Program-made: the position numbers and the translations under genes
Assembly (NCBI RefSeq): GCF_026571515.1
Contig: NW_026867195.1
Span: 1-64,000 of the forward strand
Direction of reading: 5' to 3'
Source of the DNA: Ruditapes philippinarum
Taxonomy: Eukaryota
DNA length: 64,000 nt
The notes under the pieces: model-generated
Database searches by the model: none
Seen by the model: the letters and a program-made list of their open reading frames with translations, nothing else
Told to the model about the DNA's origin: nothing
In this document: positions 14,325-60,530 of the stretch, piece by piece
How the letters are laid out: each line of letters starts with the position of its first letter
How positions within the stretch are numbered: the first letter of the stretch is position 1

Positions 14325-14910
14325 TCAACTTATCAATGTATTATGTCAGTCTTCCATTATACGATGTGTATCTATTATTATACGATGTGCATTTATGAAT
14401 ATATTATGTGATAGCATCATTATATAATGCCAACTCATCAATATGTTATGTCAGTCTTTCAGTATACGTTGTGAATCTATTATTATGCGATGAGCATTTA
14501 TAAATAAATTATGTGTCAGCATCATTATATAATGCCAACTCATCAATATGTTATGTCAGTCTTTCAGTATACGTTGTGAATCTATTATTATGCGATGAGC
14601 ATTTATAAATAAATTATGTGTCAGCATCATTATATAATGCCAACTCATCAATATGTTATGTCAGTCTTTCAGTATACGTTGTGAATCTATTATTATACGA
14701 TGAGCATTTATAAATAAATTTTGTGTCAGCATCATTATATAATGCCAACTCATCAATATGTTTTGTCAGTCTTTCATTATACGATGTGAATCTATTATTA
14801 AACGATGTACATTTATGTATACATTATGTGATAGCATCATTATATAATGCCAACGCATCAATATGTTATGTCAGTCTTTCATTTTACGATGTGAAACTAT
14901 TATTATACGA
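14325..14910 (+). repeat. 105-bp tandem repeat (5 x 21-bp subunits), ~5.5 copies
   Basis: AGCATCATTATATAATGCCAAC at 14413, 14518, 14623, 14728 and 14833. Confidence 0.95.
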
Positions 14911-19474: not shown

Positions 19475-21264
19475 CATGTCTAAATATTTTCACATGTTTT
19501 GATTATTGTATATGATTAAAATGAACTTATAAGTTATAAATATACATATCTAAAGACATTTGCAATCCCCCCTTGGCGGATCTAACCAATTAAGGAAAGT
19601 GAAGAAATCTCCCAAAATTAGAATGGGAGATAATAGCCCATTACAGTATAAATGGAAAAATACTCCATTACAGCGTAACGAGAGGATAACATAATGGGAG
19701 AATTTATCCATATTTTTGTTTAACAAATCTGACAAGAAGTTTAAAGTTAAAAAATTTGTATCACTTGATATTCGGTCTTGGACTTTTTAAAATGAAAATA
19801 GTGCGAATATTTATTTATTTATCTATTGCGTTACTGCGATACGTAATTGTTTATTTTAACTGCACACAAAGGTTCACATTCACAGAGAAAATCACGCGAG
19901 TGCCATCGTTGTTTTACATTTGTAATTTGCGTGATGAAGGAAACTAAGTAAATTTACATTTTTAAAAATCTCAACCGTACAACAAAAATCTGTACAAGAT
20001 ATTCTGTACCGATCAATCGAACAAAACTTCTATACAAAAGCACATTTCATGATATAAAAATCATGTTACATCTATTCTAGGACAAAAATGTTTTTGGTTC
20101 CTTATCTCATGTAAATATAAAAAATATAAATTTGTTTGGTCCAACGAACAAAAAAAAAATGATAAAAAATTTTGTTTAAGAATTCCTGTATAAGATATTT
20201 TTGTGAAAATATAAAAAAATACATTTATTCTTTTCACCAAACAAAAAATCATCAAAATCCTGTGTAATATATATTTTCACATTCATGCCAGTTTCATTCT
20301 TCCAATTTTGCTAATTCTTTTAGCATCATTGTAAAAATATTGTTAATTATCATGCTTGTCAAATAATTTGTTTTTATACCCATTTAGTATTCTCACCAAT
20401 TTCATGCATTTCCCTGGAATAAAAAAATACAATATTTTGATATGAATGGTTAGAATTGTGAAAAATTATTTCATCAACAGTTCTTTAAATGTAGGGTTTG
20501 ACTCAATTGTGCATTACTATATTTTGTTTACTTATTTAACAAATGATATCAACGAATCACTTTTTTATTTTGACTGACATTGACAAAAACGCTAACATGT
20601 TGAATTTTTTTTAACGAACAGAAAATCATATTTTCTTGTAATATAGCGAACAAAATTAACAGTCATATATATATATTATAATGTTTCATCTTTTCTCATG
20701 ATCAGTATGTTTGAACGACTCTTCAGTTACTTTAGAAAAGTACCTTTGTTTTGATACTTACTCTTCATTACGGCTAGGCGCCTGTTTACTTCTACCAAGT
20801 AATTTATTTTTGATCGTATGTAGGAACTGATTTTTCTTTTGAAAAATACAATATAAATACGAAATAAATAAAAAATAATAATTTTTAAACCACAGATTTA
20901 TCGTACTTTGAAATGATTATGTATGCGTAAAATAATTTGACTAGACAAGTATAATATTAAAACTGTTGTTAACCAACTACTTCGTAAAAGTTAGATTAAA
21001 ATGCGAATGGTATAACGATTAATAATTATATAATTTATTATATAAACAGAATGCTACTAAAATGAATTTTCTATTTCATCTGTTTTCGGGACAAATCTCT
21101 TATCTTAAACCAAATTTAATATTATAATACTTACATTCTTTCCGACGACATTCGTTGCTAAAAAGAAAAGAATCAACAAGCGCTATTAATTAAAACTCTT
21201 AAATCATTATAATTCTACATTCAATAAAGTCATAAATGCATTAGTTTTTTGTCATTCAATAATA

Positions 21265-22720: not shown

Positions 22721-23965
22721 TAGTGCAGAAAGCTTAGGGAAAAGAACGTATTGTCCTTAAAAGAAGTCATTAAACACCTTAAATCCAAACTTAAATTTAT
22801 CTTTTTGATTAATGTAGGACAAATAATTCAAAAACAGTTGAAAAAAAACTATAAATTATTGCATTCTCCCAGTGTGCACAATTATTAACTAACAAACACG
22901 TTTTCTGACAAGCGTGTCGGGAGTTATTCTGTAATTAGGATTTTAGGACTGGCGGCAAGCTTGTTTAAGAGACCAGAACCAACCACCTGAGCATTTGTAT
23001 AGGCAACTTTTCTAGAGTCATTCTTGTAGAGTTAAATTAAAATTTATAAAAAAAATAAATAAAAGGACAATAAATTAAAAATTGAGTAGATCTCCCTGTA
23101 TAAATATTTATTTAGCTTCGGTGGCCATCATGCAGGACCGGAACAAATTTAACCATTTAGTTAAAGACTGCCCAATATTCTTTTCTGTAGAGTTTCATAA
23201 AAATCTTTTGGGTGGTTCAGGACAAGATGTTATTTAACAGTTCTTTCTTTTTTAAGCATTTGCGTCCGTCTTGTTTAAGAAAACGGAACTATTTTTAGCT
23301 CATCTAAGGGTCATTCCTTTACAGTTACATCAGAATCTACACAGTAGTTAAGGAGGAGATATGTGAAGTTTCTTTTCTATTTTGGCCATTTTAAGGGGAC
23401 CATCTCAGGATAATTATTGTATTTGAGTTTTATTTCTTTTGGTCCAGGTGTATAAAGAGAGATAAAGTGAAAATGTTAACGACAAAGGTGAATTACAATA
23501 GCCAAACCTGAGCATGTGTAACCAAAAACATGAAGGTGATTTTGTTCTTCAAATTGGCAAGCAAAATGTTAACGCAGAAAACAGATACGTCATCGGAGTG
23601 CTTAGGACTTTTGTGAAGTGTATATATGTTTTGATGATGAACAAATGATATTTAAAATGTTTATGAAAATGTTTTGTTACTAACCGGATAAGTTTTACGT
23701 TGATTTCTATTGGTTCACAAATGGAGATATATACATGTGTATATGTTTCGATCAAACAGACTCATTAAAATCCGTTGTTGTTTTTTGGAATGACTTGTTA
23801 AAGAGACGAACGGTGCAGACGTATTGTTCAGAATTACAATTCTAATTACAATTGGTTCTGGTACGTCAAATTGAAATATCATTATAAAGGCGACTATAAA
23901 TATGTTATATAAATATGAAGAATTGAAGAATAGCCTTGAAATGCAATTTGTACAAAAAAAGATTT

Positions 23966-24200
23966 TCAAGGAAATATATTAAGGTGTAACTGGTTTTTTG
24001 ACATGAAAATTTGTGTTTCATTACTATTGTTAACAGAACTGTGGTCATCATGTACGTTGTTGATGTTTTTCGGACAAAAAGTGATACATGGCCCGCTTTT
24101 GTCTTTCTTTCTTCCCATAATCAAATATACGATCGCGCCTGATGTTAATCCTAATATGGCACTTCCACCTAAAAGTCCACCAATTATAGCAGCCACATTT
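23966..24200 (-). CDS. Single-Sushi membrane protein, last exon (TM helix + cytoplasmic tail)
   Basis: Acceptor TCTTTCACAG, phase 2. Encodes NVAAIIGGLLGGSAILGLTSGAIVYLIMG-RKKDK (hydrophobic helix then basic stop-transfer) through to NIFP-TGA. Confidence 0.85.
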
Positions 24201-24621
24201 CTGTGAAAGAACAACGAATGAATTAAGTAGAAAAAATGCTGATAATGTTTTCTGTTTACATGAAAGCAGAACTTAGTATGAGTAATAAGAATAATAGTAA
24301 GGACTCAGTTTCCGTGTGTACTATTGTAGAAGTACAACTCATACTTTGGACGAAAATATGGTTTGGCATGATTTAAAGATCATGGCCGAAAGGTCATTAT
24401 TATTCTATGTCTTTGATACATGTTTCATTTATTTCTGGCACTTGGAATGATCAGCTTGTTCATGAGAGAAACTGTATAATGCAACGCACATAACGTCTTC
24501 ATTAGCAGTGAAAAACGTGATGCAAGAAATCATCTAAATAGATTATAAACACTTAATGCAAGTTGTCTTGATACCAGTTGCAATACAGAAATTTACAAAT
24601 TATTTTGTGAGACAAACTTAC

Positions 24622-24640
24622 GAGGATGATTCCTTCGTCT
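24622..24640 (-). CDS. Single-Sushi membrane protein, 19-nt microexon (ETKESSS stalk)
   Basis: TCTATTTCAG|AGACGAAGGAATCATCCTC|GTAAGT. Converts phase 1 to phase 2, exactly as needed to join the Sushi and TM exons. Confidence 0.85.
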
Positions 24641-24869
24641 CTGAAATAGATAAGAAATTGTTGTTCATATACATGTATTTTGTATTTTATCTGAAATGTC
24701 ATTAAATTATTGTAGGAAGTAACTTCTATTCATAATTAACTTCAAAGATTGCGGCAATTTTACTTTAATTAGCATTAAATTTAAATAAAGTTGATATTAT
24801 ATTGATTTAAATAAATAGAGGATATTCAAGTTTTTTCTATAAAACATGATTTATTTACATCGAGTCTTC

Positions 24870-26040
24870 AGAGAAGATGATTTTTTAAGTTTTTACTATA
24901 TACATATAAGGGAAACCTATGGCCCCGGGGTGGGGCTAATTTTGACATTAGAGGCAAAATTTGAACAACTTTGGTAGAGTACCTATAGATAATATTATTT
25001 AAATATTAAAGCTCTAAGCCTTGTACCGTCAGACAATAAGATTTTTTGATGTTTTACTATATGTATATATTGAAATCAATGACCCCCAGGGCGGAGGCAG
25101 TTTTGACCCTAGGGCTATAATTTGAACAATCTTGTTAGAGGTTTGCTACACAATGTTTCATGAAAAATATCTAACCTCTAGCATTTGTCAATTGCTAGAA
25201 GAATTTCTTTTAAAGATTTTACTGTAAGTTTTTACTATATACATATAAGGAAAACCAATGACCCCCGGGGCGGGGCCGATTTTGACCCCAGGGCTATCAT
25301 TTGAACAATCTTGGTAGAGGTCTACCAGACAATGCCATATACAAAATATCTAAGCTCTAGGCCTTTTGGGTCTTTAACAAGAAGGTATTTTAAGTTTTTA
25401 CTATATGTACATAAAGTGAAAATCAATGACCCCCGGGGCGGGGCCGATTTTCACCCCAGGGCTATAATTTTAACAATCTTGGTAAGGGTCTAACAGGTAA
25501 TGCCTTATGCAAAATATCTAAGCTCTAGGCCTTTTGGGTCTTTACAAGAAGGTATTTTAAGTTTTTACTATATGTACATATAGTGAAAATCAATGACCCC
25601 CGGGGCGGGGCCAATTTTGACCCCAGGGCTATAATTTGAACAATCTTGTTAGAGGTCTACCAGACGATGCCTTATGCAAAATATCTTAGCTCTAGGCCTT
25701 TTGGGTCTTTACAAGAAGATTTTTTTAATTTATTCTTATAATTCCTTTTGGTTGCCATGGCAACCAGATTTCTGCATGGAATGGAATTATTTGAACAACT
25801 TTGGAAGCCCTTTACCCAAGGATCAATCCTGCCAAGTTTAGTTGAAATTGGACTAGTGGTTTTTCACAAGAAGATTTTTTAAGTTCACTATATAATCTAT
25901 ATAACACACACACAAACACACACACGCACACACACACACGCACGCACGCACCAACACACACACATACACACACACATGTGAATCGCTATATGCCACCGCA
26001 TCTATGCCACCGCATCGCAGATGCTGCGGTGGCATAAAAA
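24870..26040 (+). mobile_element. HINE (second family) with ~167-bp core repeats, 5'-truncated, intronic
   Basis: AATCAATGACCCCCGGGGCGGGGCC at 25421 and 25588; (CA)n-type tract; terminal hairpin TATGCCACCGCA...TGCGGTGGCATA followed by an A run. Confidence 0.85.
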
Positions 26041-26047
26041 ATAATTA

Positions 26048-27197
26048 AGAGAGTGCATCTATAAATTCGTTAACTAATTCAATAGCGGGGAAATGATTTA
26101 ATTCAATATCCTTAAATGATTACTCCTTCTCAAACTAACGTCCTATGCACGATTTGTCCAATTTCTCGACCCATGAATCGAACACGTGTTATAGCGCGTC
26201 ACGTGACTTCTCCCGCAGCCGTTGTCTGTCCACGGCACACCTCTTTCTCTCTTGATTCAAATTTTGTACTACGAAGAAGACTGTTTTTTTTAAATTGGAA
26301 ACAGCCAGAAGACACAAATTGCTAGGTCCGGGCTGAAGGGTAGGTGCAGTAAAAGTTCGACGTCGAGTTTTTCTAGTGTATCAATGACAACGTGGCTTGA
26401 ATGGCTCGGCGCGTTGTCGTGATGTTATGTGAATCCGGACTTAAGTAGATCTGGGCGCTTTTCCCTATTGCCACGAATGAGTCCCGTTCTAAGTAATGTT
26501 GCATTATAGTTCCGAGTGACTGTCGTTGTCGAAGGAACAAAGTGGTTAAGCACTACACCGTATGTATCACAGAATATTTTGGCCTTAACCTTCACGGCTG
26601 ACTTTGGAATTATCGCTTTTGTAGGGGAAGGCAAAGAAGGATGCTTCCAGACTCTTGACGTTTGCTTTCCGGTTCAACAAAGTGAATCCACTTTTCATCA
26701 CATGTTATCACTTGATTTAGAAAGTTATCGCCTTCTTCACGATACATTGTGTCGTACATTTACTCGTCTCTCTAGGAGTATTTTACTCTTGAATGGCAAC
26801 CACTGTTTCTTCACCTGTGACAGTCACTAGTCTACCGGAACGACTGTCGTCTTCAGTTGCCTCTCAAACGTCTTTGAACCGCTTCATCCACTTCGAAATG
26901 GTGTCTTTTGATAAAGTAGCCTATCCGTAAACTTTTTTTGCAAATTTTCACGGACTTTTATGTAAACCTTTATAACGATGCGCTGTTCGTTGACGCTGTG
27001 TGACGCCATTTTCGAACAGATGCCCCGTAACGTGACGTCATTAACGGTTTATGACGTCATAAGTGATGACGTTAAAGTTGTGTCATAGTACGATTCAATT
27101 TTAAATAATCTTTTCACAGCATTTGAAGTTTAATTTTAAACGGACCATTAGTTTTGACGCTATCGAATTAGTTTACAAATTTAAAGATGCACCCTCG
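26048..27197 (-). mobile_element. Decayed mariner transposon, 1150 bp, intronic
   Basis: TA-flanked ~40-bp imperfect TIR (CGAGGGTGCATC...). Minus-strand relic from ATG 27009: MASHSVNEQRIVIK, KWMKRFKD..EDDSRSGR, HHDNAPSH, FSPDLAIC. Contains stops and frameshifts. Confidence 0.9.
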
Positions 27198-27639
27198 TAT
27201 GTTGACTTTATTTCGATAAAATAATGAAAGTAAGTTGATTTAGATTGCATAACAAACATGCGTTTTATGCTTAGTAAGTTTAATGACAACGTGCATAAAG
27301 TAAGACGTAGAAAAAATTACAATCTGTGAACAGAATTAGGTAGCAGAACTTGATACCTATTACATTTTTATGTTTAGGTTTACGGAAAATATAATTTTCT
27401 GTTATTTTTGCTATAATACAGGCTTGTTGATAAGTACAAAAACACAGACCTAGAACATGAAACATACATGTATATGTTTTATTTCTATAAGAAATATTTT
27501 TACTTTCAAGTTTTGGATAAGATATAAAAGTACCGTGATTCACCCTACAAACACAATTTGTTACCACTTAAATTTATTTGATTATCATTCAAACAATATA
27601 TCATTATACATGTATTAACTTTTATTTAAATATTTGTAC

Positions 27640-27807
27640 CTAAAAGACAGCTAGGGGTTCTTCCATCCCATTCTCCGTTACTTGCACAAACTCTATGTGA
27701 CTGTCCATTCAAAACATAGCCTGAGCTACATAAATAAACTGCCAAAGTGGGATCGCCCTTACTTATTATAACAAACCCGTTTTCTGGAAAATCGGGTGTT
27801 TCACATG
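27640..27807 (-). CDS. Single-Sushi membrane protein, Sushi/CCP exon
   Basis: 168-nt symmetric phase 1-1 exon (TTGCAG| ... G|GTACAA) encoding CETPDFPENG...AVYLCSSGYVLNGQSHRVCASNGEWDGRTPSC, with the 4-Cys + Trp CCP consensus. Confidence 0.92.
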
Positions 27808-27924
27808 CTGCAATTGAGATATGATACACGTAGGATCATGCAAACAAAAAAGAGAAAAACATTATCCTTTAAGAACGTAAAAAAACACGACAAAATCGAA
27901 AATGTTGCACACTCAGTTTAATTG

Positions 27925-28260
27925 AGACTCTTCATGGACGGCACTGGAAAGTGTAAGCTGCAGCCCACTGCCCTAGCATCGGTCTAAGCAGAATTCAAAA
28001 TTCAAACAGTGGCGTATGGTCCCAAAGTAAAACATTGGTGTGCCCTAGACGAGAAAAGAGGGGGGGGTCGCTAAATTTAATGTCATTTTGAAAAGTAAAC
28101 CAATGTTATGAAGCCTGTATATGTGTATATGACAGACAAAAAAACGTCAGAAACAAACCATAAAACAGGCAACATATCATAATGGTGATATTACAGTGTT
28201 TAGGTCGGAATTCTGGAACCAGTCACTTAGAAAAGAGTGTAATTTGATAAAAGAGTTTGC
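27925..28260 (+). repeat. Unclassified dispersed repeat, copy 1 (others at ~40640-41030 and ~44590-44770)
   Basis: Shared blocks GGCGTATGGTC-CAAAGTAAAA, TGCCCTARACGAGAA and TTATGAAGYCTGYATA in the same order. Confidence 0.65.
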
Positions 28261-28330
28261 AATCATGCATTAATGATGAAACAATCAGTTTATGCGATTT
28301 GCGACAAAGATTAATAAAAGGCCTACTTAC

Positions 28331-28360
28331 ACTTATTGTTCAATGCTGCGATACTGCAAA
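28331..28360 (-). CDS. Single-Sushi membrane protein, 30-nt microexon (end of signal peptide)
   Basis: TTTTTTGTAG|TTTGCAGTATCGCAGCATTGAACAATAAGT|GTAAGT, phase 1-1; encodes VCSIAALNNKS. Confidence 0.85.
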
Positions 28361-28547
28361 CTACAAAAAATAAACAAATGCATACGTACTTTAAAAGACC
28401 TTTTAAAAGTATAAACTGTTTTCAAATTAGCTGTCTATACAATTTTGAGTGGTGGATAAAAGAAATATTATCTTAAATCATAATCGTTAATCGCATATTA
28501 ACTTGTAAAAACAAGTAGCGGCTCATAAGATAATAACGCTAATACTA

Positions 28548-29845
28548 CAGGGGCATTTTTAATAAGTGGCAACGGGAGTGCATTTCTGTCATACCTGTTA
28601 AAAATGATAAGTAGAGTTTCTCGAAATATTCATCATAGACCTCTACACAATTTTCCAACCTCAAAATCCATTCCGAAACAAAAGCATTTTTGAACTGTTC
28701 TTTGGGTAAACTGTTTAAACTGGTAGAAGGCGCTTCTAACGGCACTACGGGTTTCGAATCATCGACTGCGAAGGCAAAATTTGATGTATGGATTTAACTA
28801 AAAGTCAAAAGGAGAGAGGTCAAGATTATAAGCGTGATGTAGCACAACCTCAATGTTCTGTTCCTCTAAATAAGTTTGAACAAAGGCTGACCGGTGCGAA
28901 GGTATTTTATCATGGAGGGGTTTGATCCTGCGCACCCGGACCCTGAGTTTCTTTGTAATGTAGTGATTATCTACAGCAGTGAGAACATGGTCAGTGTAAA
29001 ATGTTTCATAACACTATCCCTCTCAGGCACAGCAACATGGGCTATTATTCCATTACTTTCAACAAATAAAGCGTACTTAACTCTTTTAAAGCCCTTGCTA
29101 CGTCGAGCAACAACTGGGCGATCGCTGTTTTCACCTATCCACGTTTTGTTACTGAGTTTATTGTCGGGCTAAAAAATAAATAAAAAAGCCACGTTTCACC
29201 CCCTGTGAATTTTTTTCTCAGGGACTAAGGTCCCGATCTTTCAATCCAGCCAAAAAGGCCGAGGAACCCGCCCCCTTTTCTGGTCAGAAGTAAGTAAATG
29301 CAAGATTCTACGGGCGCATACTTTCCTTAACTTTAACTTTTCTTTAAAGATAGAAAACACATATTACGCACTAAGGCCCGACATGGCACTTAACTCCTCC
29401 ACGATAAATTTTGCATCTTTGTTATCTATGACTTTGGCATTGCTAATGTTATTTTAAGAGGTAGCGGAAATTGGAGGGGTTCTATCTTTCTTAAACATTG
29501 ACGCCCACCTGGCAATTGTACGATATGGAAGGGCATTTTCTCCATAAACTAAATCAAGATCCGTTTTAATTTCTAACGCGCATTTAACAAATAACCCGGC
29601 ACGAATTTTGTAATAACCTATTTGCTCCTCTCTCAAATCAAAATGTAACTTAGCCATATTTACAACCAGTATACAAAACTACATGCATTAAAATGACCTA
29701 CTTAAATTTCTTTTTGTGCATGCAAATCGTGCGAAAATAAGACTCTTGGTTAGAAAAATAAAAAATATAAAAACTTTCCAATGGTATATTATACATGTAT
29801 CATGGTTAATTTGAGTTGTTGCCACTTCTTAAAATATGCCCCTTG
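28548..29845 (-). mobile_element. Decayed mariner transposon, ~1.3 kb, intronic
   Basis: TIR CAGGGGCATTTTTAATAAGTGGCAAC / GTTGCCACTTCTTAAAATATGCCCCTTG. Relic MAKLHFD...VYGENALPYRTIARWASMFK, LHDKIPSH, YNLDLSPFDF, ..EWILRLENCVEVYDEYFEKL. Confidence 0.9.
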
Positions 29846-29912
29846 GCCTTAGTTAACTAAGGAAATGGTACTGCTTAATTTTTAAGTTAGTTTTCTATAA
29901 GTTTGACTACTA

Positions 29913-30527
29913 CTGTATAAGTGGTTTTTTCTGTGGGCTCCAAATTCTGCGGTTTTTCCAAAATTTGGCATGTTTTTATTTCTGCGGACTTTATTTCTGC
30001 GGCACATTCTTTTAACAAAACGTGTTTAAAATTCTGCGGCTGATCTTATCACGGTCTAAGTCTCATTACTCTTCCTATTTCATTTGCATGTACAAATTCG
30101 CATTAATCGTCATCACAAAAAAAAAACAACAACAAAAAAACAACAAAACATTACAGCAATTACAAATTTATGATTTAGTGGTAAACAAACATTTCGGCGT
30201 CCTGGCAAACACCTTATTCATGTACATGTATTATGTTTAAAAAAATGTATTCACAAATTGGCATAATTAACAATAAGTACATCATTAAAAACACAGATAC
30301 AAACTTAGCTGACGGGCAAGTTTATAAAAATCAATGACCCGCCGACCGTTATGATCCGTTAGTCGCTATTACTTTTGGACGAAACAGGTCATAATCTAGG
30401 ACACATATCGTAACAGGTTAAAAAATAAAACTTGGAGAAATATTCTGCGGTTTTTATTTCTGCGGTGCTGAAATTGACCGCAAAATACGCAGAAATAAAG
30501 TCACCGCAGAAATAACCACTTATACGG
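29913..30527. mobile_element. Tc1/mariner-type MITE, 615 bp
   Basis: TA|CTGTATAAGTGGTT ... AACCACTTATACGG|TA, with repeated subterminal TTTATTTCTGCGG. Confidence 0.85.
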
Positions 30528-32899
30528 TAATTAGGAGCATATTCAGCCTAATTAAGAAACGTTTTTTGAATTTTATCTTGTTATCAGGAGTAGGATTTTA
30601 GTAACCAACCATTAGGGGTAGAAAGCATAGTTAGGAGAAATGAAATCCTTAATAGGAATCTGAAAATCCTAAAAATCAGTTATAAAAACCCATTAAAAAT
30701 TAAAATCCTAACTACAAAATGTACTTATATGCCTTATGTTGGGGTTGCGTTCATTGAACGCCGCCTTTTCTTGTTGATCTTGTTTATCATATTTTATCAA
30801 GTTTTTTAAATCTAGTATCATAGTTCTAATACATATTTTTTCATATCTAAGCTTTCAAACACCTTAACATGAGATATAAAGTCCTTTAAGTATTTCGTTT
30901 CAATCTCATAATAAGACATATTGAAGTCTTAGTTTGAATTGTATTTCTCCTTATTAGGCTTTATAAACTCCTAATGAGATGAAACCAAGTCATATTAAGG
31001 CTTTTTGTTATAAAATTCAATTCTTTTTTTGGATTTTATTACACAAAATAAGGAGAAACAAAAGCTTGAAAAGCTTTTATTACAATGTATTTATTACAAG
31101 GAATTACAAAATCCGCATTAGGATTCTATCTCTTCTAAACATATTTTGGCTTCTCGGTTACTAGATTACAAAGTTCTGATAAGGCATTTATACTTACTTA
31201 AATTACTTGCCATTATATATGTCTACGTCCCCGCGAGGTGTTTGCCATTAATGGAAGATAGATAGATTAAATGAAAAATACATATTGTTTCACTTATTTT
31301 GAAAATTTCTATAAAACCTTTTGTTTTCAAATAATGTAATATTCAGAATCGTGGGGAGTTGGTATTATCACACCAGGATAAAAAAGTGATGGAAATATAG
31401 CAAGTAACTTCAGGCGTATCGGTTAATCAATATCAAAGCTAAAGTATATTTACACACTTCTATTGATAGATTAATGTGATGGCCAACAGAACATGATAAA
31501 CGTGCTCATAAAATGCAGTTGATTATGACAAACGTTCTCAGTAAGAAAGAAAAATGTTGACTGTGTATTTATCGAATTCAAGCAGTTTTTATACCTGATT
31601 AATCACAAAAACGTATCAATGAAAATTTCAGTACTCGGCTTATATACAAGTCAGACTTGTCCTCCTTCTTTGAAGTGTTCCAAAAAATCAGGCAGGATGA
31701 TTCAATTACTTTATACTTGTTACTTGTTATGTTATTTCTAAATGATAGTGTGAAAGTCATTACATCTGGTTTGCCAGGTTCAATAACCTTAAATATTATT
31801 ACATTATTTTCATTTATACAGACGACATGGTTTTGTTCTAAAAAGCCCGATTCTTTAAGAACCATGTTAAAGGAAGTAAAAAACCTATCCTAACACATGG
31901 ACTTTAAATAAGCCATTCAGATTTCCGAATCTGGTAGGTCATGTAAATATTAGTTTCGAAATTTACGGTACTCTATTAATAGAGGCTGGCGAGTAGTCTA
32001 AATACTTGGGTTTCAACCTGTTCAAAAATGACAACTTTCATCGTTCTCAAAACATTTCCCCAGGTTTGCTCTTAACACATTATTTCAAGTATTAAATATG
32101 GTATTGAATTGCAATTTATATATATATTGGCTTTGTACTCTCAGAAATCTGAGGCTTTCAACCAGCCACAATTTGAAATGGTTTACACAAAAATAAAATT
32201 CTACGTAATGTTCTTGAAGTTAGAAAGTCAGCGCTTTACGGAGAATCGGGTGGTGGCGTCTCTATGGTTATTCAAAGAAAAAAATATATTCGATGAAAAC
32301 AATATCTCTTGTATTAATGGTATAGCGGAAATATGACAGACTGGCTTCAGTGTTCTTACAGACTTCTCAGATACTGCAACACACTCATTTTCATGGACCA
32401 AAACAGGTTTATTACTGTACTGTACTGTACTGTACTGTACTACCCTGGTGTACGCACCTTAGAAACGATCACTGTGCTCCAAATCAAATTTATAATAACT
32501 TATAAATTACCTTAGCAATGGAAGTTTTATTCATTAATCCATCTTTTACATTTTTTATGAGCTTTAAACTATTGTTAATACAAAAACAATCAAAATATGT
32601 CAAGGGATGATTTCTAATATGGCGGATATGAGAGTACAAAGAAGCGACGCGTTTGACTGTTTTCTATATTTAATCTTACCAAACTAAAATACACTTCCTT
32701 TTCACTGCGAGAGTACAGCAATTCTTTAAGCAGCACGAACTACTTTTAAAAATAATCATTTCACAAAAGCACAAAAATAAAATAAAATAAAACCTGACTG
32801 TAATTACAAGATTTGCAGTCTTTCAAAGTCTTACATTCAAACATGCTTATCATTATTAAAAAAAATTATAAACAACAACAATTACATACATTTACTATT

Positions 32900-34830
32900 T
32901 TTATTCCTCTTGACAACATATATGGTCACCTCTTCTAACAACAGCTATTTGTGCAATATTTCAAGTATGTCCAGTGTCTATCATCATCATTAACATTTGT
33001 AAAAACTTCAGGCTGCTTTCTGACAGAGGTACTCGGGACAGGGTCAGGTTTTATTGGTTACCTTTTTTGATGTTTTTTCCCTTGACCTGTATTAGATGGT
33101 TTCCGAGCAGCTTCATGTTTTTTTTAATAGCTTCAAAAAATCATCCTCTGTAATTGCCCTACAACCCACAATTGTACTTAAATATTTTCTTTTCTTAGAT
33201 GGTGGCTTCTTACATGTCAGAGAGGTTTCTTTATTCTTGAAAAAAGAAGCAGAAGAGACAGTTTTAGATGTAACAGTGTCCGGTTCATTGTTTGACTGGG
33301 TAGAAGGTTCGAATCCCGGCATGTTAGATAGTTCAAGTTCTGGCTTGCTGTATGGTTATGATGATACATTTCCTGTTGTAAAGCAGAGGAAGGGAGAAAG
33401 TGTGAAGGATTTACAGCAGTTTGGTTCAGACAAAGCATTCCCGACTTTCTGAAGGCAGACTGCAAGTTTTCGGGTAACAGTGTCTTTAAATAGGCACTGC
33501 ACGCCAACTGACATATTTCGAAAGCAGTGAAAGGGAGTAAGTGTGACGGAATTTCAGCATTTGGGTTCAGTGGAAGCATTCCCGACTTTCTGAAGGCAGG
33601 CTGCAAATTTCCGGGTAACAATGCCTATTTAAACTGACATATTTAAAAGTTTGAGATTAATCCTCAACTTGTCTCCCTCATAAATTTATGTCCGCATCTA
33701 TTAATTTTTTTAAAGGTCCGAAACAACTTACATCCATAGGCAGAAGTATGAGCAGGAAGACAAAATAAAATAATGTTTTCTTATCTTGACCACTATTCAG
33801 ATTAATGAGAAATTTATGCCCATCATAAATAAAAGAACTGTGCAAGATTCAGATCAATTTGGAAAGTACTTTATCAGATGTGATTGAATACAGTGCTTAA
33901 CGATTTCACTATTTCTCCAACCAGTCTCTGATACAGTACCATCAGCCCTAGGAGTACTACCGTTCAACAATGCGGAATTCATGCAACCACCAGGAAATGC
34001 AAAGTATCGAGGTATTGGTTGACCTTGAACATTACCGCAACCTTACACGGTTACATTATCCCTACTGGATGACACTTCAGCTTGGGATTTTACTTGTTCA
34101 GAGACAACAGGTGGAGGCTTATGTCTAGTACTTAAGCCTTTTTTGTCAACATTATAAAGAATCATTGGACGATCATAAGGTTATATGTTAGAAGAAACAT
34201 TGGACGATCACAAGGTTATATGTTAGAAGAATCATTGGACGATCACAAGGTTATATGTTAGAAGAATATATGAAAGTTCTTTATAATACTTCTCTACACA
34301 TTCCTTTGAAATTGCCTTGGCACATTTAAGTTCAATGCCTCTTGGATCTGCTCCGGCCAACGCGACTTGAAAAGAACAAACCAAACCAGCCAACAGATAA
34401 AGTTTCCCCCTGATTGTTTATGACCCAATGCAACAACATTCTCTGTGGCAATATCAATAACTTCCTTCCTGGAAATAAATAATTGTTTTTGTATAATTGT
34501 CATCAATAAATAATTTTTAAAAATATTGATTATAAATTAAATTTATGATTAAATATTTAAACACATAAATTAAATAACATAAGATAACGTCAAAATACCC
34601 ACCTGCTGTATCCTTTTCCCACAGAAGCAGTGAACGTAAGTATTCAACTAGAAAGGCTTCCTCTTCATGGGTAAATAAATGTGGTGGTCCCGAACAAACA
34701 ACCTAGCCTCTGGCACACTATATTGACTAGCAGTAGTTCTAATTAGGGCCCTTGTCTCCCTGCATTTTTAATAACCTGAGAACATTAAAGTTTGAGAGTT
34801 ATTCCTGACCTTAACTTTAGGTGTCTGTAA
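32900..34830 (-). pseudogene. Decayed pogo/Tigger-like (HTH + DDE_1) transposase with an apparent intron
   Basis: Fragments GPPHLFTHEEEAFLVE, GYSR|KEVIDIAT, WFVLFKSRWPE, YNVDKKG, GADG-like RADGTVSETGW, LPAHTS..PMDVSCFGPLKK, NLQPAFRKSGMLPLNP, and C-terminal HWTYLKYC. TIRs not resolved. Confidence 0.8.
34157..34267 (+). repeat. 35-bp tandem triplication within the pogo relic
   Basis: CATTGGACGATC at 34163, 34198 and 34233. Confidence 0.9.
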
Positions 34831-35259
34831 AAATGAAATGAATAATAAAAAAGGGTTAACAAAATACTAACTTTAATATATTGGTATTCTATAAAAATAA
34901 GAGTACATCTTCCTATACAGTGAATTATATATTTTGTGGTCACATTACATGCGGAGTGAGGTGTCGGCTGGTCTGACTGTCATTTTTATAAATTTTCTGA
35001 AAAATTCATTTTCAAAGTTATACAGAAATATTTATAAGAAAAAACAACATTTATACGTTAAAAAGTATGAAAAGAGTACCTCAAAATTCCTGACTCTCCA
35101 AATTTTTGCTGCGAGAAATAACCGTAATGTTTACTAACAGATGTGCGTGAGAGTGACGTCATACGGAAACCAGAAATCGAAATCGAGGTCAAAACATAAA
35201 CGGCGGCGTGATTAAGATGCGTCGAAATAAAGTACAGGAGAATACAACACTATACTTCC

Positions 35260-35695
35260 CAATGCTATGCTATGGTATGCTACGCTACGCTTGACTACAC
35301 GGCAAGGCACGGCACGACAGGACACTATACTTTGCTACACTATACTCTATTATACGATACGAAACTTATACCGATACCGATAACTAAACCTATAATTACA
35401 CTGTACTGAAACACTACAATACAATATCCTATCCTATTCTGTCCTATTCTATGCTATGCTATGCTATGCTATGCTACGCTACGCTACGCTACGCTACGCT
35501 ACGCTACGCTAAGCTATGCTATCCTATCCTATTCTATCCTTTACTATCCTATCCTATACTATTCTATATACATGTACTCACCTATCTGACCGAACGACCG
35601 GCCGGCGGCCTGCCTGCCTGCCTGCCTTCCTGTCTGCCTTCCTGCCTACCCACCTACGTACCTACATACCTACCTACTTACCCACCTACTTACTT
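35260..35695 (+). repeat. Compound microsatellite (CTATG/CTACG/CTATC, then GCCT/ACCT)
   Basis: Directly visible. Confidence 0.95.
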
Positions 35696-35938
35696 AGAAT
35701 TTTGAATATTTTATCATCTAATTAGCGAAATTAAACTTTTGTTTAAAAGAAAAATATTTATTTCAAGCTTTAGAGCTACGTTGTTGTTTTTTTTTCTATA
35801 AAATACCTTTTAAATAACTTCACACATTGAAAAATAAGACAAAACAATGATCTATAACGATATCTAAAAAATGTAAAAATTGTAAAACAATAATATTTGT
35901 CATTATTTTTAGCTTCATAAAACATAATAATGTCTCAC

Positions 35939-35984
35939 CTATATTCATCACGAGCAAACACATACCGGCGTTGGTAGAAAACAT
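35939..35984 (-). CDS. Single-Sushi membrane protein, first coding exon (signal peptide start)
   Basis: TTCGTTTCAG|ATGTTTTCTACC...AATATAG|GTGAGA; encodes MFSTNAGMCLLVMNI, ends in phase 1. Confidence 0.8.
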
Positions 35985-37876
35985 CTGAAACGAACAATTG
36001 TTTTATAAAATACCAAACACATAAGAGGGGACATTAAATAAGAAAAAAGAAACTGTACAAATGTTTTGTTTTTATTTCTGACTGAAGTGGTTCCGATTTT
36101 CGATATCATGTGGATGATATGAAATTGTTGAATGGAACTTATCTTAATGTCAGTCTTACTTAAAAATGACATAAATTTTCTTCTTTTTTTCAAAATATTT
36201 ATTTAAAAGAAAACATCAGCTGTACTTGTCAAGCAGTTGAACATTTATGTATTATTTAAATCCGATACAAAAGATTTTCTATCGAACCACTTCAACAGAA
36301 GCAAACAAAACCATAAACATCAATAATAATTAAACAAACGAAACTATAACAAGAAGATTACAGGTGCCAAATAATTATGTATAGGGCTATGCATGTTTCG
36401 TTTCACAACCAAGTCAATGCCCGTGTAGAAATGTTTTTAAATATATTACTGATAATATTGCTGCGAATCATATAACTGTATCAAGAGACTATTAGTAAGA
36501 GCACATAAACTGACTTTAGTTTTGCGAAAGAGTAATTCTATAATAATAATAAATACACATTAATATTTCCATGTTGCTATTAACCAGCATATTAAATAGC
36601 TTAGAACACCAACTTTATAAAACTATATTAAGCTGAGAAAGGAAATCACAAAAATACCTGTCCTTTCTTTTATATTATCATACCTGTCCACAGAAAATTA
36701 CAGCATTTGATAATAAGCAAAAACTGGTTGAAACTAAATATAATGTGTCACCAGAAGATAAGTCCTGCTGCTACACATTTATGTCACACAAAATCAGCTT
36801 TCTGATTAACGGGAATAACAGGAAAGATTTAATTTAGTTGGACATCACAGCCAATTGTGAAATTTGTTGAAAATAAGCTGTCGGATGAAGGTAATGATTT
36901 AAATGAAATTAATTTGAAAATAAAGGCAGGGATACTGAACTATATGTCTTCCTAAGAAGCCAAACCTTGCATAGATGAAAAGGCGAAAAGATGCAAATTG
37001 CGATTCAGAATTTCAGTTTGAATCTTTGGAGTCGAGTCAAATTTTTTGTTGATACGGATAATAAGACTCTTTAGTAATTAAAATGCTCCATAATATCCAA
37101 CATTTAATATTAAATGTTTAAAAAACACCGTTAAGCTATTAATTATAGACATGCCAGGAAAAAAGCTAGATTTGAAACAAATAAGCGCAGTATTATAAAA
37201 ATGAATACATAGATATAAAGAATTTGAAGACCAAATTTAATTTCAACAAAATATACTGTTAATACACAATGCAATTTTAGGTAATCATCCAATCATGATC
37301 GGTAAATTTGACACCTTTTTTAGCTTTAATTCACATAATAAACATTCGGTTTACTTCATGAGTGTAACTTGAATTGTTGTGTCTGTCAATATATTATGAA
37401 GATTTCGTTTTATGTAAATGATAAACGCACACTCGCACTCGGTTGACATATGTTTTTATTTGTAACTTATCTAGAATCAGTTTGATACAATTTAACAGTA
37501 ATGATATGAAAACTAGGTGTTCTATGAAATGCGTACATAGGACAAAAACAGTGAGCTTAAACAAGTGGTATTTCGGACAAAGAAGTTAAATTTGTTGAAA
37601 AATTATCAGAGGAAAATTGATTGTATAAGGGCTTGGGTCGTTGCTCTAAATATTGATTCTGTCGGTGGCTCTAGTTCAAACAAAACACATGCTTTCAGCT
37701 CAGACTACTGATTTATTCCCAAAAACTTATATTATAAGACATGCCTGACATATTAAACTGATAATTTTATAACGGGTTGACGGACCAAACTTTTTCGCAA
37801 AAATTATGTTGTATTTACGGCACAACGTCCCCAGTATTATATTAATTAGCTGATGATACTTATTTAATTGTCTGAC

Positions 37877-37910
37877 CTTCCTAGACGACGTCTCAGCTGC
37901 AACTCAACTC
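37877..37910 (-). other. Putative non-coding first exon of the Sushi gene
   Basis: Starts ~30 nt downstream of the TATA box and ends GGAAG|GTCAGA. The ATG directly follows an acceptor, so an upstream exon is required. Confidence 0.55.
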
Positions 37911-39902: not shown

Positions 39903-42855
39903 CACCGTAGGTAACGTGTTACAGTATCGCGCTTTCTGGTAACAGTATAGAATTTTCAAGATGGAGGATTATTTGTGGGGAAGACGGGTAGGTGATTTTA
40001 TTCCGGTCCATTCCGAAGTTCAGTTTCTAAAGGATGTGCTTGTGCTTTGCTTGTAAGAAACTGGATCCGGTATCTAGTCATGTATTCCTCAGACCCTACA
40101 ATGCAGATTTATCTCTATATTGTCTCATAAATATGCAGATTTGACAGTTTGAAAATTTGAATCGAGAGACCAACGCATTTATCTCCAATTCCGACATTAT
40201 TTAAGCATGCCTACAAAAATTAAACCAACGTTAGTCCTTTGTGTTTAGAAACGTTTATAAAAGTAAATGACCAGTTAAACCTATTTTCTTGTTCGTTAAA
40301 TGCGTTTGAAAAAATAAACAATGTTGCAGTATAGAGCGAGGTAAGTTTTGCAGGGTTACAGTATAGACCGAGCGACTTTGATCCGATTTTGTTACAGTGT
40401 ATACCCATATTTCGGTTACAGTTTAGATACTTGCCAAATTTCAAATAAAATGTGTGAATCAATTATTTTTTTTATAAAATAGCCAATACTTTTCTATTTA
40501 ATATGTTCTTGAAAGCTGTTTTATTGCCATTTTTTTCTTCAGCAGAAAAGTTACAGTTTAAAATACACATTATAATGCGTATTAGTTATAAAATAGAGAA
40601 AAGGAAAGTACAACACGGCAAAAAGACTCGATTTGTTTGAGCCTGTTCATAACTGCAAGCTACCGTCCACGCCTCCTAGCACCAGCTTAAGCAGAATTTA
40701 ACATGAACTGGTAAACTTAAATAAGAATTATTTTAACATCTGTATATGTGTTCATATGGCGGCTACCATGGAACCTTCATTGTGACACATTAGTGCCATT
40801 TCATGAAAAGCGGCATATTGTCCCAAAGATTAAAAAGTTGCGTGTGCCCTAAACGAGAACACAATGGGTGAAACTAAATAAAATAGAATTTTTGAAAGAG
40901 AATCGGAGGTTATGAAGTCTGCATACCACAGAAAAACTGTCAAAAGTCACGATTAAAAAGCAGGAAACATACCCTAAGGGTGATTAAACAGTAATCAAGT
41001 GAGAAAAACTGCAACCTTAAAACTTATTTTAAGTATTTAAAAGGGGTGGTTACTTCTTTTTCACCTATATTAAGGTCCTTTGTGAAACATTTCAGACAAC
41101 AGCGGGCACCTGACTAGAACCACCGACCTTCCGTAAACTAGCTTGACAGATTCCTCATATACAAGGAATCCAACGTCATGGCGGAATTCAACCGCAGCAG
41201 TAAAAGAAAGATGATTTGAAGTCGGCAACCTTAACCCGATTCTGCCACTATTATGTACCTCCATCAGGCTCTATGGAAAATATATTGTAATTGTCTGACC
41301 TTTTTGTTAGATATTTTCCTTTTCAGAAACATGAAAACTTCCATACAGAATGTCTGAAATAAATAACACGACTATTAATTCAATAAGAACAAAATAATTT
41401 CCATTTCAACAAGGAGCATTCAAAATGACGCCAGGGTCATGATTTTATCTTTCTTTGCAAAATTCTTCACAGCAAATGCTTTTTGGTTCGGGGGAAGAAT
41501 GATTTATATTGCCTTTTTTAAAAATCTATATTTTTGGTTTTGTATCCCAGATTGCAACCGAAACCATTCCCAGTTTGAACAACTTTGGTAGAAATTCATG
41601 TGCACTTCATCAAATCTGGCCAAGTAGTTACTGAGCGGATGCCATTGGACACACATGTGTACGACAGACGGACGAATAGTCATCGGGCCAATAAGCTTAG
41701 ATTTAAAAGTGTATAATATAATTTATACATTTAACCTAGTATATTATCATATACCAATTATCATTTCCGTAACCAACACATATTTTGCAATTATGCTTGT
41801 CATGTTATAAGTTAAGTGCTCATCGCCCTATTATTAAAATAGAAAATATCCTGACCATTGAAACGATGTAACTTAATGTTATGAGGTCGTTGTATAGAGG
41901 CCAGTGGAAAATGTTACACAAAGCCTTATTTGAAATTAGAGTAACATGTAGAATTTCAGTGGTAAAAATGATATTTAAAAACGGAATTTAACAATCATTT
42001 TAATGATGCTGTTTAATTATCCTTATTACTATGTATATGCATTAATAAGGTGTCAACATATCACATCATTTACTCATGAAACGTAAAATGAATTTGGATA
42101 TGGAAATGAAATTTGGTAGGCAGGACACATCTGATGAAACCTAAATGGAAACAATACTCGCAATATTTATCGCTGCTACCACTTCAGTCCTGCAGAAGAA
42201 TATTAACACAACTTACTGGTCATTTTTTAAAGAAGTTTCGTTAAATTGCAGTGGAAAAAAAAATATTTGAGAATTTGTAAAAATAAAATAGAATGACCCG
42301 TATATAGAAAATATCGATGTCTAAACTGTAACCGAAATCTGGGTATAAACTGTATCAAAATCAGATAAAATCGCTAGGTCTATGCTGTAACCCTACACAA
42401 TTCACCTCGCTCTATACTGTAACATTGTTTATTTTTTCAAACGCATTTGACGAACAAGAAAATAGGTTCAACTGGTCATTTACTTTTATAAACGTTTCTA
42501 AACACAAAGGACTAATGTTTTGTAGCTTTATTTTTTGTAGACATGCTTAAATAATGTCGGAATTGGAGAAAAATGCGTTTGTCTTTCGATTCAAATTTTC
42601 AGTCTGTCGAATCTGCACATTTATGAGACAATATAGAGATAAAACTGCGGTGCAGGGTCTGAAGAAATATATATAACTACATACCTGATCCAGTTCCTTA
42701 TAAGCAAAGCACAAGCACATCCTTTAGAAACTGAACTTATTGTAGTATGGACCTGAATAAAATCACCTACCTGTCTTCCCCACAAATAATCCTTCATCTT
42801 GAAAATTCTATACTGTAACTGGAAAGCGCGATACTGTAACACGTTCCCTACGGTG
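39903..42855. mobile_element. Non-autonomous long-TIR DNA transposon with Transib/RAG-like end signature, 2953 bp
   Basis: Inverted arms 39903-40427 and 42320-42855; termini CACCGTAGG...CCTACGGTG; 5-bp direct repeat TACTT at 39898-39902 and 42856-42860. Confidence 0.8.
41075..41245 (-). mobile_element. Diverged tRNA-SINE, same family as 49729
   Basis: Reverse complement contains GGAAGGTCGGTGGTTCTAGTCAGGTGCCCG. Confidence 0.75.
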
Positions 42856-54546: not shown

Positions 54547-55243
54547 GGTGACGTTAAAATGTGAACATGCTGTCCGCGGACATGTTTTATTTCAGATTTA
54601 TACCAGATGAAGATTTTTTAATGAAATGTTATGTGTTTTAATAAACCATGATCAACCAAACAAATGACCCTTTGATAACTTAATCATATTTTCTGAATAT
54701 TAAAATATTTTGTTAAAAAACTGCGCAGACTCTTCAACATATTCGGTTATGCTATTTTTAGTGAGTCAGAATCCTTTTTCAATGTCGTAGAGGAAATATT
54801 ATTGCCAATGCGTAAAAGATGTCGACCAGAGCTTATTTTATGTAAGCTGAATACACTGAATATATTTAAGATAATCCGAAAAATGACATACAGTAAGTGT
54901 AACAATAATTTTTTGTATATAGATATTACCAAACTTAATTAATTAAATTTAAAGAATATTCATTGAATGGGGATAGTACAAATCTTACCTTAATCAATTT
55001 GTCCACATAAACTATCCTGTTGAGTTAAGGAATTTTATACTATTTCTCACAGTGTCGAAATGACTGTATCTAGAACACGTATGCCAGAGGTTTAAATTAT
55101 ATAAGAATTGCGTATTTATGAACCCGCGTGAAATGTAAAACTTCCTTTCTTTTCGAAAGGCCTTTTATAATACAATACAACAATACCTTGTACTTATAGT
55201 AAATAGTTTTTAAAACTAATTGTAAATCAAAACGGATTGACTT

Positions 55244-58900: not shown

Positions 58901-60530
58901 GAACTTAAACAAATATATTGCTGATTTACGATGATGATGTATCATTGATGATAATGATGTTGTTGTTGTTGTTCATAATGATGATGATGATGATGATGAT
59001 GTTTTATTAACGTTGATGAAGCCAGGTTAAAACTTTGATGCTAATGTTAGTATACTGTGTAAAATGTGTGACATATACGGTTAGGCATTTACTACCAAAT
59101 TGCAGAAACGTATATAGCAAATAAAGACAGTTGTGATAAATTCGACCGAATATGTCCCAAACGTGTGACATATACGTTCTGTGACATATACGGTCCTACA
59201 TCTGTCAAAAACCTTTCATTTATATTCCTGCAAAGCTGCTAGAGGTTGTGACCTCAAATATTTTATAAATAGTTTTGAGCATCAAACATTTCTCTTGCTA
59301 GGGGTCAGGACTTTGTCCCAGCTTTGAATCTTTTTTAAAAATGATATAACACGTACACATTTATGAAAGACATTCCAATATGTGTTGTTTCCCTTTCAGT
59401 ATTATTTTAAGAAAAGCCATGCTTCCGGGAGCAGAGCCAATTTTGACCCCAAAGCTATGATTTGAATAATATTAATAGAGCTTCACTTCCCTGGAAAATG
59501 AATCATCCTTAATATCTAAACTCTAGTCAATGAAGTTAAAAAAAGAATTTTTACAATATACATATAAGGAAAACACCCCCGGGGCTGGACCAATTTTTAC
59601 CCAAGGGCTATAATATGAACAATCTTGGTAGAGATCAACAAGACAATGCTGTAGGAATGTTGGTATTATTCCTTTCAGTTGCCATGACAACCGGATTGCT
59701 GCATGAAAATAAGATTCTTTGAAAACTTTTGGAAGCCCTTCATCCAAGGAAAATCCTGGCAAGTTAAATTGATAACGGACATTAGTGTTTAAGAATAGGA
59801 AAATTGTACATTTTCTAGTTAATCTATTATATAATCTATATAACACGCGCGCCCGCGCTGGCACGCACGTATACACACTTACACAAATGGATCGCTATAT
59901 GCCGGTGACAGTAAAATGTTGAACATGCTGTCCGCGGACATGTTTAATTTAAGATGAAGATTTTTTTAATTAAATGTTATGTGTTTTAATAAATCATGAT
60001 CAACCAAACAAATGAACCTTTGATAGCTTAATCATAGTTTCTGAAAATTAAAATATTTTAAAAAGAACTGCGCAGACTCCTCATTATAATCGGTTATGCT
60101 ATTTTGAGTGAGTCAGAGTCCTGTTTCAATGTCGTAGAGGCAATAGTACTGCCTATGCGTAAAAGATTCGACCAGAGCTTATTTTATCATGTTTATGTAA
60201 GCTGGATATACTGAATATATTTAAGATAATCCGAAAAATGCCATGCAGTAAATAAAAAACTTATACAAATAAAACTTATTGTATATAGGTATCACCCAGT
60301 TAAAAGAATTTTCATTGAATGGCGATTGTAAAAATCTTACCTTAACCAATTTGTACACACAATCTATCCTTGGTTGAGTTAAGGAATTTTATATTATTTC
60401 TCACAGTGTCGAAATGACTGTATCTAGAACAAGTATGTCAAAGTTTTAAATTATATAAGAATTGCGTATTTATGAACCCGCGTGAAATGTAAAACTTCCT
60501 TTTTTTCATGTCCTTTAATAATACAATTCA
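56000..60530 (+). repeat. Local segmental duplication, copy B (~4.5 kb, lacks copy-A insertions)
   Basis: Colinear with copy A. Confidence 0.9.

What the first reader, a model, noticed from the sequence alone, without database searches (positions are those of the whole stretch)
23966..37910. Complete microexon-built gene for a minimal single-Sushi type I membrane protein
Seen: five coding exons with canonical GT-AG and matching phases total 498 nt = 165 aa: MFSTNAGMCLLVMNIVCSIAA-LNNKS-[CCP]-LLETKESSS-NVAAIIGGLLGGSAILGLTSGAIVYLIMG-RKKDKSGPCITFCP...NIFP. Three exons (46, 30, 19 nt) are invisible to the ORF track. The TM has stacked GxxxG/SxxxG motifs, and juxtamembrane cysteines are present. 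Established: single-CCP type I architecture occurs in vertebrate IL-15R alpha and SUSD3. Inference: a lineage-specific dimerising recognition or complement-control-like receptor; orthology is not claimed.
Basis: partly seen in the sequence, partly recalled or inferred. Interest (0 to 1): 0.7.

Follow-up and report, generated by a model that had tools for sequence, protein, structure and literature searches.

The report
Clam single-Sushi membrane protein family
This is a real, spliced Manila-clam gene, already in public annotation under a misleading name, for a small protein predicted to sit in the cell membrane with one Sushi domain outside; it is one of six fast-diverging look-alike genes in this genome and likely serves as a cell-surface binding subunit rather than a complement regulator.

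Summary
Spliced contigs support the non-coding exon-E1-E2 path for this allele, and E1-E2-E3 and E3-E4-E5 for a ~92% variant. No extra extracellular exon appears. The gene has a non-coding first exon 19 kb upstream (about 55114-54989) and eight coding exons; joined, they equal RefSeq XP_060578139.1 (191 aa, Ruditapes philippinarum, named 'SVEP1-like') letter for letter. Six loci in this genome share the layout Sushi exon, 16-25-nt stalk microexon (phase 1 to 2), transmembrane exon with GxxxG. Ectodomains diverge fast, tails faster; one paralogue has tyrosine motifs, this one none. One Sushi cannot form the three-domain unit of complement regulators. Best reading: a likely cell-surface binding subunit; ligand unknown. 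No relative outside this species turned up in weak searches; the scan had not noted it elsewhere. Known architecture, undescribed small family.

The parts
54989..55114 (-). 5' non-coding exon (E0); in-frame stop, no in-frame ATG, one 4-codon upstream ORF; 5' end estimated from contig length
   Evidence: Loose end of the X3 contig matches the window exactly here; GT donor and 19,004-nt intron; translation
60341..60468 (-). Second copy of the 5' exon with intact donor, inside a 2.2-kb duplication (52989-55181 vs 58340-60532, 86.7%); possible alternative first exon, use not shown
35939..35984 (-). Coding exon 1 (46 nt): start codon directly after the acceptor, hydrophobic signal-peptide core (predicted)
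   Evidence: contigs in X1, X2, X3, X5 with 2, 1, 0, 0 differences
28331..28360 (-). Coding exon 2, 30-nt microexon: likely signal cleavage site and N-glycosylation sequon N24
   Evidence: exact in X3 loose end; variant between joints in X1; kept in paralogues
27640..27807 (-). Coding exon 3 (168 nt): the single Sushi/CCP domain, C27, C52, C66, C79, W72
   Evidence: Pfam PF00084 E 8.4e-8; joints at both ends
24622..24640 (-). Coding exon 4, 19-nt stalk microexon, phase 1 to phase 2
   Evidence: variant between joints in X1; counterparts in 6 of 6 family loci
24025..24200 (-). Coding exon 5 (176 nt): predicted transmembrane helix with GxxxG, basic stop-transfer patch, two juxtamembrane cysteines
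   Evidence: acceptor joint in X1; donor aligned in 4 of 4 close copies
23966..24024 (-).
   Evidence: low-depth contigs cross the donor in X1 (3.59) and X2 (6.9)
21135..21157 (-).
   Evidence: RefSeq match; same size and splice sites in 2 of 2 close paralogues
20762..20835 (-). Coding exon 7 (74 nt), basic tail segment
20374..20413 (-). Coding part of exon 8 with the stop codon; AATAAA 144 nt downstream at 20229

Best explanation
The window holds a spliced nine-exon clam gene for a 191-residue protein with one Sushi domain, predicted to be a type I membrane glycoprotein that likely works as a small cell-surface binding subunit (adhesion or recognition), and would need a partner to signal because its tail has no tyrosine. 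Shown: exon structure, splicing of the 5' and extracellular exons, the Sushi domain, six look-alike loci, fast divergence. Inferred: signal cleavage near residue 21; the Sushi domain held about 8-10 residues above the membrane by the stalk microexon; binding of a protein ligand on a neighbouring cell or in the fluid, as single Sushi domains do in IL-15R alpha; lateral packing with a partner through the outer GxxxG; palmitoylation of the juxtamembrane cysteines. The family likely grew by whole-gene segmental duplication (introns still align at 65-77%), with copies diverging in binding surface and tail.
For: Eight coding exons join to a protein identical to XP_060578139.1, all introns GT-AG. Spliced joints with CT..AC ends in X1 (depth 102 and 78.4) and X2 (17.4); exon 1 in 4 of 4 contig sets laid, with exact E0 and E2 flanks in X3. 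Pfam finds only Sushi on the whole protein. Paralogue on C4467 equals XP_060589851.1, 183 aa, same layout. Six loci share the Sushi exon, stalk microexon and TM exon in the same phases. All four Sushi cysteines invariant in 6 of 6; an outer GxxxG in 6 of 6 and at least one cysteine after the helix in 6 of 6, against 14 of 29 and 8 of 29 in other CCP proteins (related copies are not independent). Ectodomain dN/dS 0.39-0.80 in three pairs, below 1 but high. No tyrosine in the tail. Nearest Atlas clusters are Sushi proteins, SUSD3-like among the top two by features for both proteins (0.89, 0.91).
Against: No ligand, tissue or stimulus is known: run tissues are not given. The three tail junctions were not seen directly; support is RefSeq's model, conserved splice sites, and word shares of 0.21 in X3 and X5 against 0.25 expected if spliced and 0.64 / 0.94 if read through, an indirect test that allelic differences could mimic. 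Joints E2-E3 and E3-E4-E5 were seen only for the ~92% variant. Two low-depth contigs cross the exon-5 donor. dN/dS counts are small and untested; Sushi 0.47-1.05, TM 0.78-1.89, so relaxed constraint fits too. The Sushi tree does not show the six loci as one clade (3 changes, 0 of 200 bootstrap trees with 1; unresolved). Two raw RNA runs, 4 and 6 in 100 read, gave depth 0-0.13 in the TM-exon bin. No SignalP or DeepTMHMM was available; the signal peptide lacks a basic n-region.
Confidence: 0.5

Rival explanations
1. Non-immune structural role: a SUSD3- or LEV-9-like adhesion, matrix or receptor-clustering accessory protein in one tissue (gill, mantle, nerve, gamete), with divergence from relaxed constraint rather than recognition.
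For: CCP proteins cluster receptors at invertebrate synapses (PMC9083331, passages); SUSD3-like cluster nearest by features; weak, below-cut-off Syndecan TM match in the paralogue (E 4.5e-4); low signal in two bulk RNA runs.
Against: Such proteins are usually conserved (general knowledge); here no relative outside the species was found and expressed variants differ by 11 of 142 nt in the Sushi exon.
Confidence: 0.22
2. Polymorphic recognition family of paired-receptor or fester type: copies and alleles bind different self or non-self ligands, and tails with or without tyrosine motifs give different outputs.
For: Six loci; an expressed form in two studies matches none of them, with 4 of 6 listed Sushi changes non-synonymous; the C11090 tail has YEPV and YETA, this gene none; Sushi exon followed by short stalk exons as in fester genes (PMC11507803, passages).
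Against: Only 6 of 11 differences were listed; no dN/dS above 1 with support; no canonical ITIM; no Ig domain and one TM instead of three (PMC12065747, passages); clams are not known to fuse tissues (general knowledge); Manila clam genes are broadly polymorphic (recalled).
Confidence: 0.13
3. Membrane complement regulator (CD46/CD55-like) acting on clam C3.
For: Best solved-structure sequence matches are complement proteins (CR1, CR2, C2, factor B, factor H, CD46; 38 sequences), all at generic Sushi level.
Against: One CCP only; the smallest regulatory unit is three tandem CCPs (PMC6683126, passages).
Confidence: 0.06
4. Redundant duplicates drifting towards loss; the protein does little.
For: Tails of the three closest copies share only 11 of 67 to 20 of 57 residues and end in different exons; the C11045 copy has Cys for the conserved Sushi Trp; introns carry many repeats.
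Against: All examined Sushi, stalk and TM exons in 6 of 6 loci join without a stop and keep their phases; two copies have RefSeq models; spliced transcripts in four studies.
Confidence: 0.09

Closest known systems
RefSeq XP_060578139.1 (Ruditapes philippinarum, 'SVEP1-like')
   Same: It is this gene: identical 191-aa product.
   Different: The name is an automatic best hit; the protein has none of SVEP1's vWA, EGF or pentraxin domains.
SUSD3 (vertebrate Sushi domain-containing protein 3)
   Same: Single Sushi plus TM (recalled; SUSD family with CCP and TM in PMC9083331, passage); nearest or second-nearest Atlas cluster by features.
   Different: TM-scores of Atlas models under 0.5; no sequence evidence of orthology; single-copy and conserved in vertebrates (recalled) against six diverging copies here.
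IL-15 receptor alpha
   Same: Signal peptide, one Sushi that carries ligand binding, TM (PMC10705774, passages); signals through partners.
   Different: Not among the 38 solved-structure matches; longer stalk and a vertebrate cytokine ligand (recalled).
Botryllus fester family
   Same: Multigene family; Sushi exon followed by short stalk exons, then TM exons; tail variants by alternative splicing (PMC11507803, passages).
   Different: Fester has an Ig domain and three TMs, and over 35 genes paired with tyrosine-motif co-receptors (PMC12065747, PMC12582321, passages); no homology shown.
Regulators of complement activation (CD46, CD55, CR1)
   Same: CCP module on a membrane anchor.
   Different: They need three tandem CCPs (PMC6683126); this protein has one.

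Membership tests
Sushi/CCP domain (PF00084) | Profile score above the curated cut-off | tested here: met
   32.9 bits vs 20.7; 29.6 on the whole protein
Sushi/CCP domain (PF00084) | Four invariant cysteines and a conserved tryptophan | tested here: met
   C27, C52, C66, C79, W72; the C11045 copy lacks the Trp
Sushi/CCP domain (PF00084) | Beta-sandwich fold in a predicted model | tested here: inconclusive
   AlphaFold2 on a 6-row alignment gave mean pLDDT 44.3; Atlas models match Sushi clusters at TM under 0.5
Type I single-pass membrane protein | Signal peptide and one transmembrane helix followed by basic residues | tested here: inconclusive
   Hydropathy only: 19-residue peaks 1.79 at residue 4 and 1.85 at residue 97, paralogue TM 2.56; no SignalP or DeepTMHMM available
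Regulators of complement activation | At least three tandem CCP domains | tested here: not met
   One CCP in the 71.4-kb contig and in the protein; rule from PMC6683126
Regulators of complement activation | C3b/C4b binding with cofactor or decay activity | not testable with these tools
   Needs an assay
SVEP1/polydom (RefSeq name) | vWA, EGF, pentraxin and many Sushi domains | tested here: not met
   191 aa, Pfam finds Sushi only
SUSD3 | Single Sushi plus one TM | tested here: met
   (TM by hydropathy)
SUSD3 | Orthology by sequence or tree | not tested
   No SUSD3 sequence was fetched; Atlas feature scores of 0.89-0.91 are leads only
IL-15 receptor alpha | Binds IL-15 through its Sushi domain | not testable with these tools
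   Architecture matches; no hit to it among 38 PDB sequences
Botryllus fester family | Ig domain plus Sushi plus three TM helices | tested here: not met
   No Ig, one TM; definition from PMC12065747
Botryllus fester family | Multigene and polymorphic, with copy-number variation | tested here: inconclusive
   Six loci and one expressed variant that matches none; no population data
GxxxG transmembrane dimers (glycophorin A, syndecan type) | Conserved GxxxG in the helix | tested here: met
   6 of 6 loci, but also 14 of 29 unrelated CCP-protein helices
GxxxG transmembrane dimers (glycophorin A, syndecan type) | Measured self-association in a membrane | not testable with these tools
   Needs TOXCAT, cross-linking or FRET

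The most novel reading that the evidence does not exclude
A clam-specific, polymorphic family of minimal one-Sushi recognition receptors, convergent on fester and paired receptors: at least six loci plus highly divergent alleles or copies missing from some individuals, tails with and without tyrosine motifs, and a duplicated first exon that offers two promoters.
Probability: 0.13. Interest if true: 0.65.

Novelty: new member of a known kind. Interest (0 to 1): 0.27.

Why it matters
Modestly. It corrects a misleading public name (not SVEP1), which matters when clam QTL and expression studies list 'SVEP1-like' hits, and it defines a six-locus family by an exon-phase signature. If alleles prove to be under diversifying selection and expressed in haemocytes or gametes, it would be a compact, testable candidate for self/non-self recognition in a farmed bivalve. 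As it stands, the architecture is known and the function open.

Tried and rejected
Homodimer prediction (residues 22-135, two copies): no verdict, score 0.02 against a mark of 0.32, controls not folded; used neither for nor against. AlphaFold2 of the Sushi exon: pLDDT 44.3, not used, no fold search run. One search listed no holder on record as RNA; the contig runs are RNA by guess, though their joints have splice ends. A 5' exon near 37910: no spliced contig there in four runs. An N-terminal coding extension from the 5' exon: rejected, in-frame stop and no ATG. Which 5' exon copy the X2 variant uses: 4 against 5 mismatches in 30 nt, counted by eye, not decisive. Variation concentrated in the CCP hypervariable loop: differences among the three closest copies are spread over the domain, so not claimed. 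Orthologues in other species: three word-based searches found only the two clam proteins (1 of 4, 1 of 115, 2 of 683 candidates; the second missed the 58% paralogue, so sensitivity is low); the HMMER search gave 4178 hits, the 150 shown being multi-CCP proteins apart from P0104, so small relatives may lie below the list. Monophyly of the six Sushi domains: tree unresolved. Literature: seven searches; no paper names either accession and no listing described such a clam family; an 'SVEP1' gene in a Perkinsus-resistance region (PMC13504780, passage) could not be tied to this locus; its supplements were not read. Pfam did not confirm the transposase-like remnant in intron 1.
Full report
Observation. 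The 168-nt exon is a Sushi domain (PF00084, 32.9 bits, cut-off 20.7). The small exons are not chance: a scan for strong acceptor-donor pairs 10-60 nt apart finds 6 on the minus strand of the window, 3 of them exons of this gene and a fourth starting at its last acceptor.

RNA evidence. Contigs of runs X1 and X2 (RNA by the tool's guess) join 35939 to 27807 across CT..AC ends (depth 102 and 17.4), with a 30-nt exon-2 sequence printed between them for X1, and X1 joins 27640 to 24195 with the 19-nt exon between (depth 78.4). These contigs are a variant: 11 differences in 142 nt of the Sushi exon in X2. Contigs of X3 (790 nt, depth 28.5) and X5 (865 nt, depth 8.7) carry exon 1 without a difference, and the X3 loose ends are the window's own exon 2 on one side and an upstream exon on the other. 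That exon lies at about 55114-54989, 19,004 nt upstream, behind a GT donor; it has an in-frame stop and no in-frame ATG, so it is non-coding. Nothing spliced lies near 37910. Two raw RNA runs, of which 4 and 6 in 100 were read, gave depth 0-0.13 in the TM-exon bin: the gene is not abundant in every sample; tissues are not given.

The real 3' end. A search with the Sushi exon returned a 191-aa public protein, XP_060578139.1 of Ruditapes philippinarum. The donor aligns in 4 of 4 close copies and the 23-nt exon keeps its size and splice sites in both close paralogues. X3 and X5 hold 0.21 of the words of 23600-24210; 0.25 is expected if spliced, 0.64 and 0.94 if read through. Against it, contigs at depth 3.59 (X1) and 6.9 (X2) cross the donor; X1 has similar low-depth contigs in other introns. 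The 165-aa form is therefore at most a minor retained-intron product.

Family. The Sushi exon's best matches in the genome are C11090 (78%), C4467 (69%), C11045 (53%), C15143 (52%) and C3185 (48%), among 134 matches from 150 of 727 candidates scored. The C4467 model equals XP_060589851.1, 183 aa. All six loci have a Sushi exon ending in phase 1, a stalk microexon of 19, 19, 19, 25, 16 or 16 nt ending in phase 2, and a TM exon, joining without a stop. Searches from the two divergent members and a codon pattern returned only these loci (lower bounds). One CCP was found per contig stretch examined; the 5' parts of C15143, C3185 and C11045 were not fully modelled. An exon 1 on C3166 may belong to the C11090 gene, whose contig begins in intron 1 (inference). 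Introns of the three closest copies still align at about 65-77%, so they arose by segmental duplication. A tree of 87 Sushi domains neither shows nor excludes one origin for the six. The X1/X2 form is closer to this locus (about 92%) than the paralogues are (79-80%): a divergent allele or a copy absent from this assembly.

Protein. Hydrophobic segments at residues 4-22 and about 90-116; a sequon at N24 kept in the three closest copies; GxxxG at 95, 96 and 105; cysteines at 126 and 130; no tyrosine after the helix. An outer GxxxG is in 6 of 6 loci, but 14 of 29 helices of other CCP proteins among 152 examined have one too, and the 105-109 motif is not kept in the two closest paralogues, so 'stacked motifs' is weak evidence for a dimer. 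Pairwise identity is 50-56 of 74 in the ectodomain, 12-15 of 27 in the helix and 11 of 67 to 20 of 57 in the tail; dN/dS is 0.39-0.80 for the ectodomain, 0.78-1.89 for the helix, on small counts without a test. The C11090 tail, as I modelled it, has YEPV and YETA; its last exon border is uncertain.

How it likely works. A single CCP cannot form the three-domain unit that complement regulators need (PMC6683126, passages). Single Sushi domains do carry high-affinity protein binding in IL-15R alpha (PMC10705774, passages). I therefore read this as a small binding subunit at the cell surface, which would rely on a partner for signalling; its ligand is unknown. Fast divergence, an unusually distant expressed variant and unlike tails point towards recognition, and recall Botryllus fester genes (PMC11507803, PMC12065747, PMC12582321, passages), but fester has an Ig domain and three helices, and relaxed constraint explains the numbers as well. 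A non-immune adhesion or clustering role stays open (PMC9083331, passages).

Novelty. The gene is annotated, under a wrong-sounding name; the architecture is known from SUSD3 (recalled) and IL-15R alpha. No paper in the library names either accession, and the listings show no description of this family. No relative outside the species was found, by searches of low sensitivity for this purpose. The scan's notes hold no look-alike. Verdict: real gene, first model partly wrong, new member of a known kind, interest 0.27.

Noticed in passing
window 52989-55181 and 58340-60532: A 2.2-kb tandem-like duplication (86.7%) copies the 5' non-coding exon with its donor and upstream DNA: two candidate promoters. 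Only the proximal copy has the 4-codon upstream ORF.
   Followed up: partly
window about 33000-34800, minus strand (intron 1): Broken, apparently intron-bearing transposase-like remnant with stops and frameshifts; looks pogo/Tigger-like by recalled motifs, Pfam gave no hit on the pieces tested.
   Followed up: partly
window 26428-26673 and 29457-29678, minus strand: Mariner-type transposase remnants in introns 3 and 1 (Transposase_1 E 2.6e-4; HTH_48 E 0.0085; both under cut-off).
   Followed up: partly
window 43866-44509 and 47561-47935, minus strand (first intron): Fragments that look like LINE reverse-transcriptase C-termini (recalled motifs; no Pfam hit).
   Followed up: partly
G000:C11045:11446-11616: The family copy here has Cys in place of the conserved Sushi Trp and seven cysteines in the TM-exon stretch; free thiol or early decay.
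   Followed up: partly
G000:C15143 and G000:C3185: Two family loci 73-88% alike over about 14 kb (recent duplicates or haplotypes), with a longer Sushi exon carrying 24 extra upstream codons; their 5' exons were not modelled.
   Followed up: partly
runs X1 and X2 on window 27640-27807: X1 shows two Sushi-exon forms (depth 78.4 and about 25) that share some differences from the window; X2 also holds a 1552-nt contig matching exon 1 with 3 differences, probably a paralogue transcript.
   Followed up: partly
window 6600-9830, 14326-14910, 18381-19322, 25225-25725, 51082-51428: Satellite-like arrays with periods 85, 105, 301 and 167; the 167-nt and neighbouring repeats are very abundant in RNA runs.
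   Followed up: no
window 39903-40427 and 42320-42855: A 537-nt inverted pair, 89% alike, 1.9 kb apart in the first intron.
   Followed up: no
G000:C14566, C3496, C11876, C2014: Contigs with many CCP exons each, large multi-Sushi genes unrelated in layout to this family.
   Followed up: no
G000:C4467:5391-17924: Several long ORFs downstream of the paralogue, one with leucine-rich-repeat-like text by eye.
   Followed up: no
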